DNA from: Escherichia coli
GTDB taxonomy: Bacteria; Pseudomonadota; Gammaproteobacteria; Enterobacterales; Enterobacteriaceae
Direction: 5' to 3' (one strand)
NCBI RefSeq assembly: GCF_003334315.1
Contig: NZ_QOWR01000078.1
DNA length: 14,359 nucleotides
In this document: piece by piece, positions 529-568 of the stretch
Position numbering within the stretch: the stretch's first letter is position 1
Layout: every line of letters starts with the position of its first letter
The notes under the pieces: generated by a model
What the model was told of the DNA's origin: nothing
The model's database searches: none
Seen by the model: the letters and a program-made list of their open reading frames with translations, nothing else
Position numbers and translations under genes: made by a program

Positions 529-546
529 GGCGGCATCATCGCCGCC
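529..546 (+). terminator. Short GC hairpin (GGCGGC-atcatc-GCCGCC) followed by a T/A-rich tract, between the subunit remnant and the usher; possible intra-operon attenuator
   Basis: Perfect 6-bp inverted repeat seen directly in the sequence; downstream is tttcataaaatattt. Subunit-usher intergenic attenuators are common in chaperone-usher operons (established knowledge). Assigning that function here is inference. Confidence 0.3.
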
Positions 547-568
547 TTTCATAAAATATTTATCAGGT

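What the first reader, a model, noticed from the sequence alone, without database searches (positions are those of the whole stretch)
529..568. Hairpin between the pilin remnant and the usher start; usher start codon is ambiguous
GGCGGCatcatcGCCGCC followed by an A/T-rich stretch sits 11 nt after the remnant stop, at the position where chaperone-usher operons often carry an attenuator that sets subunit-to-usher stoichiometry. The usher could start at ATG 569 or GTG 578, and neither has a strong Shine-Dalgarno sequence, so its translation may have depended on coupling that is now disrupted.
Basis: partly seen in the sequence, partly recalled or inferred. Interest (0 to 1): 0.2.

Follow-up and report, generated by a model that had tools for sequence, protein, structure and literature searches.

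The report
Conserved hairpin after fimbrial pilin gene
The hairpin is a real, evolutionarily conserved RNA stem-loop that follows the pilin gene ybgD in E. coli and its relatives; it most likely lets cells make more pilin message than usher message, which is an ordinary feature of fimbrial operons, and here it is a leftover because an IS1 element has destroyed the pilin gene.

Summary
GGCGGC-AUCAUC-GCCGCC lies at 529-546, 10 nt after the stop of an IS1-truncated ybgD, and folds at -13.1 kcal/mol. ATG 569 and GTG 578 are in-frame candidate usher starts, both with weak Shine-Dalgarno pairing.

The hairpin alone is not statistically unusual. Comparison shows it is functional. All 16 distinct pilin-usher junctions examined (13 organisms plus three E. 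coli alleles) carry a GC-rich stem-loop just after the pilin stop. In 12 alignable sequences the six core pairs are always paired, and 3 of them (6 of the 9 pairs tested) show compensatory changes (0/500 shuffles reach the observed score).

The U-tract is not conserved and is sub-threshold in this allele. I therefore read it as a leaky terminator and/or 3' exonuclease barrier that enriches pilin mRNA. This resembles the papA-papH partial terminator and the fimA-fimI hairpin. Five other K-12 fimbrial operons have a comparable hairpin, although the fimA one does not fold better than shuffled sequence.

GTG 578 is the conserved start: it is RTG in all 11 alignable organisms. ATG 569 is lineage-specific and sits inside an ancestral Shine-Dalgarno motif.

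The translational-coupling idea is not supported, because intact loci have a 50-59 nt gap with the hairpin in it. Overall this is an ordinary new member of a known kind, of low interest.

The parts
1..453 (+). Partial IS1 copy (3' part of insB, right inverted repeat 431-453) that truncates ybgD
   Evidence: Annotated as IS1-like transposase in matching records, and homology to ybgD starts at 454. Sequence read. This exact IS1-ybgD junction is found in none of 5,426 complete E. coli genomes.
454..518 (+). 3' remnant of pilin gene ybgD (last about 20 codons, stop TAA 516-518)
   Evidence: 100% identical to the end of intact ybgD in strain CY708, where ybgD is 567 nt.
529..546 (+). Conserved GC-rich stem-loop (stem 529-534/541-546, loop 535-540): the pilin 3' hairpin, read as a leaky terminator or exonuclease barrier
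   Evidence: dG -13.1. Present in all 16 distinct orthologous junctions. Core pairs are 100% paired with compensatory changes, 0/500 shuffles. RNAalifold predicts the same stem.
547..568 (+). A/U-rich tail and usher leader: UUUC then AUAAAAUAUUUAUC, then the SD-like AGGU (564-567)
   Evidence: Only 4 U in the first 8 nt, so the terminator scan does not flag it. The commoner E. coli allele UUUCUUCA is flagged. AGGU-anti-SD duplex is -3.8 kcal/mol.
569..571 (+). ATG, the upstream in-frame candidate start used by PGAP; lineage-specific and lying inside the conserved GGUAnGGA motif
   Evidence: The homologous codon is ATG, AGG, ACG or AAG across orthologs, and Citrobacter has a 1-nt indel downstream of it. 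The SD-like AGGU is only 0-1 nt away.
578..3025 (+). ybgQ usher ORF from the conserved start GTG 578 (815 aa); intact
   Evidence: RTG at this position in all 11 alignable organisms (13 sequences). K-12 reference annotation is 2,448 nt, which equals this start. Homologs carry PapC_N/Usher/PapC_C domains.
3040..3768 (+). ybgP chaperone, intact
   Evidence: ORF list. Coordinates mapped from K-12 gene lengths and spacing.
3765..4826 (+). ybgO, 353-aa putative tip or adhesin-like fimbrial protein, intact
   Evidence: ORF list and K-12 annotation.
4835..4862 (+). 10-bp hairpin 8 nt after the ybgO stop; probable end-of-operon structure
   Evidence: Perfect inverted repeat GATGCCCTTT/AAAGGGCATC, dG about -17.6. 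Not analysed further.

Best explanation
The stem-loop at 529-546 is the conserved 3'-end structure of the pilin cistron of the ybgDQPO chaperone-usher operon.

Inferred mechanism:
- On the polycistronic transcript made from the promoter upstream of ybgD, the hairpin forms right after the pilin stop codon.
- With its short, imperfect U-tract it stops a fraction of RNA polymerases. It also blocks 3'-to-5' exonucleases on terminated or processed transcripts.
- Pilin mRNA therefore outnumbers usher, chaperone and adhesin mRNA.
- The leak supplies ybgQPO, which have no promoter-like site of their own.

What is shown and what is inferred:
- Shown: the structure, its position, its conservation with compensatory substitutions, and the variable U-tract.
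- Inferred by analogy: partial termination or stabilisation, and the effect on stoichiometry.

In this window the element is a relic. IS1 has removed all of ybgD except its last 65 nt (about 20 codons), and with it the operon promoter, so the hairpin can only act on read-out from IS1.

The usher most probably initiates at the conserved GTG 578. ATG 569 arose by a change to T inside the ancestral SD (UAGGGA or UAAGGA became UAUGGA). That change weakened the SD. ATG 569 may serve as an alternative start. The mature protein would be the same either way, because the signal peptide is predicted to be removed.
For: Position and architecture:
- Intact loci have gltA, ybgD, a 50-nt gap and then ybgQ. 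K-12 has the same layout.
- All 12 fetched orthologous operons share the order pilin, usher, chaperone, then a 332-357-aa protein where annotated.

Conservation:
- Every junction has a GC-rich hairpin (dG about -12 to -22). The core stem starts 5-12 nt after the pilin stop in 14 of 16.
- The two most distant orthologs (Enterobacter hormaechei, Salmonella diarizonae) have stems of unrelated sequence at the same place.
- Intergenic z-scores are -1.1 to -4.2 in 13 of 14.

Covariation in 12 distinct sequences:
- 88.9% of cells are paired, against 21-54% when the 3' partner is slid.
- The six core pairs are 100% paired.
- Both-side changes occur at 6 of 9 pairs (CG/UA, GC/AU, CG/GC and others).
- 0/500 shuffles reach the observed score. 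RNAalifold independently predicts the stem.

Terminator likeness:
- The commoner E. coli allele (7 bp, tail UUUCUUCA) and the Klebsiella ortholog (tail UUGUUUUU) are flagged by the terminator scan.
- By the same U-count rule the tails of [Enterobacter] lignolyticus, E. hormaechei and Escherichia sp. E4694 also qualify.

Leakiness and a single operon:
- No promoter-like site lies between the hairpin and the usher.
- ybgD, Q, P and O change together in STEC RNA-seq.

Precedents:
- A partial terminator lies between papA and papH.
- The fimA-fimI hairpin stabilises the FimR2 RNA.
- Intergenic hairpins follow sfmA, elfA, yadN and yraH in K-12.
- ybgDQPO is listed in the pi clade, which also includes the pap operon (my own knowledge, not in the cited table).

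Start codon.
Against: - No transcript 3'-end or stability data exist for this operon. It is reported as cryptic in K-12 (my own knowledge of Korea et al. 2010, which appears in the reference list seen).
- The U-tract is not conserved. It is poor in Superficieibacter, E. albertii, Citrobacter, S. diarizonae and contig SRR11408873.
- The window allele misses the scan's threshold, with 4 U in 8. Canonical intrinsic termination is therefore not established and may be weak or absent in some lineages.
- Hairpin energy is the same on both strands (-242 against -238 kcal/mol summed). Strand assignment rests on gene orientation and the tails.
- Some compensatory changes may be single events inherited by related genera.
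- Hairpins of this energy are common in the window.
Confidence: 0.65

Rival explanations
1. The hairpin is the 3' end of a small regulatory RNA cut from the pilin 3' UTR, in the way FimR2 is cut from the fimA-fimI spacer. Its main role would be trans-regulation rather than operon stoichiometry.
For: K-12 annotates a 35-nt sRNA, FimR2, in the equivalent fimA-fimI spacer. Its stem-loop is needed for stability and it is made by RNase E. The 10-nt spacer before the ybg hairpin is AU-rich and single-stranded in E. coli.
Against: There is no visible sequence similarity to FimR2 and no GGA in the loop for CsrA. Only 5-12 nt of single-stranded RNA lie between the stop and the stem in most orthologs, and that spacer is not conserved, which leaves little seed sequence. 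No Rfam match. No expression data.
Confidence: 0.1
2. The element controls usher translation. It would do so by coupling to pilin translation or by an RNA structure that hides the usher ribosome-binding site.
For: Both candidate starts have weak SD pairing in E. coli. An A/U-rich stem (554-563 with 578-587, plus 566-568 with 575-577) would bury both starts.
Against: The gap between the pilin stop and the usher start is 50-59 nt in intact loci, which I judge too far for termination-reinitiation. The start-burying stem is weak (-7.5 kcal/mol, z = -1.3), is absent outside Escherichia, and its consensus energy is -2.9 with a single covarying pair. The conserved GC hairpin ends 14-40 nt before the start and does not touch the SD or the start. 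Orthologs without the upstream ATG have a good SD of their own.
Confidence: 0.07
3. The palindrome acts at the DNA level, as a binding site for a dimeric regulator or as a repeated extragenic element.
For: It is a perfect GC-rich inverted repeat. Hairpin energy is strand-symmetric.
Against: Complementarity is conserved rather than sequence. Stems differ in sequence, length (6-11 bp) and loop (3-6 nt), and are unrelated in the most distant orthologs. Several cells keep pairing only through G-U pairs on the + strand, which would be A-C mismatches on the other strand. There is only one copy in the window.
Confidence: 0.03
4. It is a chance inverted repeat with no function.
For: Windows of equal folding energy occur about every 450 nt in this sequence.
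Against: It is retained at the same place in 16 of 16 distinct junctions. That holds across about 50-100% usher identity, with compensatory changes and 0/500 shuffles. A coding-region hairpin at 670-691 tested in the same way shows no such signal (301/500 shuffles).
Confidence: 0.02

Closest known systems
Partial transcription terminator between papA and papH in the pap (P pilus) operon
   Same: A stem-loop directly after the major pilin gene and before the assembly genes, on one polycistronic transcript. It reduces downstream transcripts and protects the pilin mRNA 3' end. pap belongs to the same pi clade (my own knowledge) in which ybgDQPO is listed.
   Different: No sequence relationship was tested. 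In ybg the next gene is the usher itself rather than a minor pilin. Termination at the ybg hairpin is not demonstrated, and its U-tract is short (UUUC) in this allele.
fimA-fimI intergenic hairpin / FimR2 sRNA of the type 1 fimbrial operon
   Same: A G/C-rich stem-loop in the spacer after the major pilin gene, followed by a poor U-tract. The stem is needed for RNA stability.
   Different: FimR2 has a roughly 17-nt single-stranded 5' part and a GGA-containing loop bound by CsrA. The ybg spacer offers 10 nt and has no GGA. There is no visible sequence similarity. No ybg-derived sRNA is known. The fimA spacer does not fold better than shuffled sequence (z = +0.22).
Canonical Rho-independent terminator
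   Same: A GC-rich 6-7-bp stem with a 4-6-nt loop, followed by U residues, just after a stop codon. The commoner E. coli allele and several orthologs pass a simple terminator scan.
   Different: The window allele has only 3 consecutive U and 4 U in 8 nt, and fails the scan. Five orthologs lack a U-tract altogether. Downstream genes of the same operon need read-through.
Protective 3' stem-loops in differentially decaying operons (malEFG, CFA/I cfaAB; Dar and Sorek 2018)
   Same: A conserved structure at the 3' boundary of the cistron needed in highest amount. In that survey, conservation of the structure across genera was typical.
   Different: Most of the structures in that survey lie about 107 nt inside the downstream coding region. 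This one is intergenic. The candidate coding-region hairpin here (670-691) shows no covariation.

Membership tests
Rho-independent (intrinsic) terminator | GC-rich stem-loop of about 5-14 bp with a 3-8-nt loop on the transcribed strand | tested here: met
   6 bp, all G-C, 6-nt loop, -13.1 kcal/mol. The commoner E. coli allele has 7 bp with a 4-nt loop.
Rho-independent (intrinsic) terminator | U-rich tract directly 3' of the stem (scan criterion: at least 5 U in 8 nt) | tested here: not met
   The window tail UUUCAUAA has 4 of 8, so the site is not flagged. It is met in other E. coli alleles, Klebsiella, lignolyticus, hormaechei and E4694, and not met in 5 other orthologs. It is therefore not filed as a canonical terminator.
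Rho-independent (intrinsic) terminator | Transcript 3' ends map to the U-tract in vivo or in vitro | not testable with these tools
   No transcript data. No paper found that maps ybg transcripts.
Post-pilin attenuator or stabiliser hairpins of chaperone-usher operons (pap and fim type) | Stem-loop in the spacer directly after the first (major) pilin gene and before the assembly genes, on the same strand | tested here: met
   The same layout occurs in the fim, sfm, elf, yad and yra operons of K-12.
Post-pilin attenuator or stabiliser hairpins of chaperone-usher operons (pap and fim type) | Structure under selection: kept in orthologs through compensatory changes | tested here: met
   The distant orthologs L017 and L018 have stems of unrelated sequence.
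Post-pilin attenuator or stabiliser hairpins of chaperone-usher operons (pap and fim type) | Downstream genes depend on read-through (no internal promoter) | tested here: inconclusive
   No sigma-70-like site lies between the hairpin and the usher, and the four genes are co-regulated in RNA-seq. A consensus scan cannot exclude a promoter.
Post-pilin attenuator or stabiliser hairpins of chaperone-usher operons (pap and fim type) | Pilin mRNA in excess over downstream mRNA, dependent on the stem | not testable with these tools
   Needs Northern blots, Term-seq or a rifampicin chase with stem mutants.
FimR2-like 3'-UTR-derived sRNA | Sequence or motif similarity to FimR2 (single-stranded 5' part, GGA in the loop for CsrA) | tested here: not met
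   The loop is AUCAUC (or CUAU) and has no GGA. There is no similarity to the FimR2 sequence by eye. No Rfam hit.
FimR2-like 3'-UTR-derived sRNA | A stable small RNA accumulates | not testable with these tools
   No expression data.
Translational coupling between adjacent cistrons | Stop and start overlap or lie within a few nucleotides, or the upstream ribosome opens a structure that covers the downstream RBS | tested here: not met
   The gap is 50-59 nt. The GC hairpin does not include the RBS. The RBS-covering stem is not significant or conserved.

The most novel reading that the evidence does not exclude
The hairpin may be a translation-gated attenuator. Its 5' arm starts only 5-12 nt after the pilin stop codon in 14 of 16 junctions. 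From general knowledge of ribosome footprints, that is within reach of a ribosome terminating on ybgD. A ribosome that closely follows the polymerase would then hinder stem formation and allow read-through into the usher, chaperone and adhesin genes, while untranslated pilin mRNA would terminate. This would tie transcription of the assembly machinery to actual pilin translation. Alternatively, the stem could be the 3' end of a FimR2-like regulatory RNA.
Probability: 0.12. Interest if true: 0.4.

Novelty: new member of a known kind. Interest (0 to 1): 0.15.

Why it matters
It matters little beyond annotation.

- It adds one more case, well supported by covariation, to the rule that chaperone-usher operons place a stem-loop after the major pilin gene.
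- It shows that the stem is conserved across at least eight enterobacterial genera while the U-tract is not. That argues the selected property is RNA-end protection or leaky termination, not efficient termination.
- It gives a comparative reason to prefer the GTG (815-aa) start of ybgQ used in the K-12 reference over the ATG (818-aa) start used by PGAP in thousands of genomes. The mature usher would be the same either way.
- For this window, the IS1 insertion has orphaned an otherwise intact usher-chaperone-adhesin set.

Tried and rejected
- **Rfam** on 400-700: only chance-level matches (MicA E = 7.9, Giardia U2 E = 3).
- **Genome contigs peptide scan with YbgQ:** returned only E. coli and a contaminated MAG. 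Orthologs were obtained through the protein search and the look-up of encoding contigs instead.
- **Metagenome scan:** The 16-base pattern gave 120 stretches, of which only one (L093) is a real ortholog and the rest are chance matches.
- **Second, start-burying A/U-rich stem (554-587):** weak, not significant and not conserved, so rejected.
- **Strand assignment from G-U asymmetry in folding energy:** no difference between strands.
- **Coding-region hairpin at 670-691**, flagged as terminator-like: pairing is explained by protein conservation, with no covariation.
- **Internal promoter for ybgQ:** none found by the consensus scan.
- **TTG 527**, the mechanical ORF start: rejected because it lies inside the hairpin, upstream of a region that is non-coding in orthologs.
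- **Literature:** no paper was found that describes this hairpin or maps ybg transcripts.

Full report
**What is in the window.** Bases 1-453 are the 3' part of an IS1 element, with its right inverted repeat at 431-453. Homology to the E. coli pilin gene ybgD starts at 454. Only the last 65 nt (about 20 codons) of ybgD remain, with the stop TAA at 516-518. The usher ybgQ (to 3025), the chaperone ybgP (3040-3768) and ybgO (3765-4826) follow and are intact. The rest of the window is the normal E. coli abrB...phrB-dtpD neighbourhood. A second, inverted IS1 copy starts at 13907. The exact IS1-ybgD junction occurs in none of 5,426 complete E. coli genomes. The uninterrupted ybgD-ybgQ junction occurs in at least 3,744 of them.

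**Check of the observation.** The perfect repeat GGCGGC/GCCGCC with loop AUCAUC lies at 529-546, 10 nt after the stop. It is followed by an A/U-rich stretch.
- It folds at -13.1 kcal/mol and dominates the ensemble.
- The 50-nt intergenic region has z = -3.6.
- Hairpins of this energy are common: 32 + strand clusters in 14.4 kb reach -13 kcal/mol.
- The tool's terminator scan does not flag the site, because the tail UUUCAUAA has only 4 U in 8.

**Comparative evidence.** A protein search with YbgQ gave a graded series of homologs from 97% to about 50% identity. I fetched the DNA around twelve of them:
- Escherichia sp. E4694
- E. fergusonii
- Superficieibacter electus
- an unnamed contig from run SRR11408873
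- [Enterobacter] lignolyticus
- E. albertii
- Kluyvera ascorbata
- Klebsiella sp.
- Citrobacter
- Pseudocitrobacter faecalis
- Enterobacter hormaechei
- Salmonella diarizonae

All have a pilin gene, then the usher, then a chaperone. A 332-357-aa protein follows where it is annotated. One more ortholog came from a metagenome scan.

Every one of the 16 distinct junctions has a GC-rich stem-loop shortly after the pilin stop. Three of the 16 are distinct E. coli alleles (two more E. coli loci repeat one of these junctions). The core stem starts 5-12 nt after the stop in 14 of the 16.

In an alignment of the 12 alignable distinct sequences:
- The six core pairs are paired in all 12.
- Pairs change on both sides at 6 of 9 positions (C-G to U-A, G-C to A-U, C-G to U-A through U-G, C-G to G-C, and others).
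- 88.9% of cells are paired, against 21-54% when the 3' partner is slid by 1-3 columns.
- None of 500 shuffles reaches the observed pairing or covariation.

RNAalifold predicts the same stem independently. The two most distant orthologs have stems of unrelated sequence at the same place. As an internal control, a terminator-like hairpin inside the usher coding region (670-691) was tested in the same way. It shows no covariation beyond the shuffles. The intergenic hairpin is therefore a selected structure.

**What it most likely does.** The stem is conserved but the U-tract is not.
- The tail is good in lignolyticus (UUUUUUC), Klebsiella (UUGUUUUUC), hormaechei, E4694, the metagenome ortholog and the commoner E. 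coli allele (UUUCUUCA). The commoner E. coli allele and Klebsiella are flagged by the scan.
- The tail is poor in Superficieibacter, E. albertii, Citrobacter, S. diarizonae and contig SRR11408873.
- No promoter-like site separates the hairpin from the usher.
- The four genes change together in published STEC RNA-seq.

A structure that must let some transcription through, and that is selected for its stem rather than its tail, fits a leaky terminator and/or a 3' exonuclease barrier that raises pilin mRNA over assembly-gene mRNA. That is inference by analogy, and the analogies are close.
- ybgDQPO is listed in the pi clade, the clade that includes pap (my own knowledge). [quoted passage not shown] - Differential decay also shapes CFA/I fimbrial mRNA.
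- In K-12 the spacers after fimA, sfmA, elfA, yadN and yraH all contain a hairpin. The fimA one is weak relative to shuffled sequence (z = +0.22).
- The fimA hairpin is the stabilising stem of the annotated sRNA FimR2.

I give the leaky-terminator or stabiliser reading 0.65. A FimR2-like sRNA gets 0.10. There is no sequence or motif similarity to FimR2, and the spacer upstream of the stem is very short and not conserved.

**Start codon.** Public annotation disagrees. PGAP starts ybgQ at the ATG (818 aa). The K-12 reference starts it at the GTG (815 aa). The DNA alignment settles which codon is conserved.
- The codon homologous to GTG 578 is GTG or ATG in all 11 alignable organisms.
- The codon homologous to ATG 569 is ATG, AGG, ACG or AAG.
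- Citrobacter has a 1-nt indel between the two positions.

ATG 569 lies inside a conserved GGUAnGGA motif. In lineages without the ATG, this motif reads AGGUAGGGA or UAAGGA. It pairs with the anti-SD at -5.9 to -7.0 kcal/mol, 4-5 nt before the conserved start. In E. coli the T that creates the ATG reduces the best pairing to -3.8 kcal/mol. That pairing comes from AGGU, which abuts ATG 569 and ends 9-10 nt before GTG 578.

GTG 578 is nonetheless the ancestral start and probably still a functional one. ATG 569 may be an added alternative. The conserved A-x-A followed by (V/T)EFN in all homologs indicates a cleaved signal peptide, so both starts would give the same mature usher.

**Coupling.** In intact loci the pilin stop is 50 nt from the ATG and 59 nt from the GTG, with the hairpin in between. 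An A/U-rich stem that would bury both starts is weak (z = -1.3) and is not conserved outside Escherichia. Classical translational coupling is therefore not supported. What IS1 disrupted is transcription from the operon promoter upstream of ybgD.

One speculative link between translation and the hairpin remains: the stem begins within reach of a ribosome terminating on ybgD. I record it as the novel case (probability 0.12).

**Verdict.** The hairpin is real and conserved. It is a new, well-supported member of a known kind, the post-pilin stem-loops of chaperone-usher operons. In this window it is a relic next to an IS1-truncated pilin gene. Interest is low (0.15).

Noticed in passing
window 1-453 and 13907-14359: The window is bounded by two partial IS1 copies in inverted orientation, each with its right inverted repeat facing the enclosed 13.4-kb ybgD'...dtpD segment. 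The left IS1-ybgD junction is absent from all 5,426 complete E. coli genomes. The source may be a Shigella or an IS1-rich strain, and the segment could be an IS1-bounded inversion or composite.
   Followed up: partly
window 4835-4862: A perfect 10-bp hairpin (GATGCCCTTT...AAAGGGCATC) lies 8 nt after the ybgO stop and before abrB. It is the likely end-of-operon structure. Its tail TCTTTCAG is not U-rich enough for the scan.
   Followed up: no
window 670-691: A terminator-like hairpin with an AUUUCAUUAU tail lies about 95 nt inside the usher coding region. It is flagged in two E. coli alleles. Pairing persists in orthologs, but there is no covariation beyond what protein conservation gives (301/500 shuffles).
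   Followed up: yes
window 554-587: An A/U-rich inverted repeat (AAAUAUUUAU / GUGAAUAUUU, plus GGU/ACC) would enclose ATG 569 in a loop and pair GTG 578. It folds at -7.5 kcal/mol with z = -1.3 and occurs only in the Escherichia sequences.
   Followed up: yes
L007 1412-1460 (Escherichia sp. E4694): This ortholog has a 39-nt insertion between the pilin stop and the conserved hairpin. The insertion forms a stem-loop of its own. Its origin is unknown.
   Followed up: no
L020 2675-2709 (K-12 fimA-fimI spacer): The K-12 reference annotates the sRNA FimR2 on the equivalent post-pilin hairpin of the type 1 fimbrial operon. This raises the question of whether other post-pilin hairpins yield small RNAs.
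   Followed up: partly
protein P0002: One assembly carries a 1,021-aa gene call that fuses a pilin domain to the usher, at 95% identity. ybgD and ybgQ are in different frames, so this needs an indel or an assembly error in the spacer.
   Followed up: no
L006: A 3.2-kb contig of a metagenome-assembled genome labelled Collinsella sp. is 100% identical to E. coli ybgQ at the protein level. This is almost certainly contamination of the bin.
   Followed up: no
L002 and L003: ybgQ is annotated as a frameshifted pseudogene in E. coli strains FORC_031 and 0H26, although the pilin gene and the hairpin are intact. The operon decays in different ways in different lineages.
   Followed up: no
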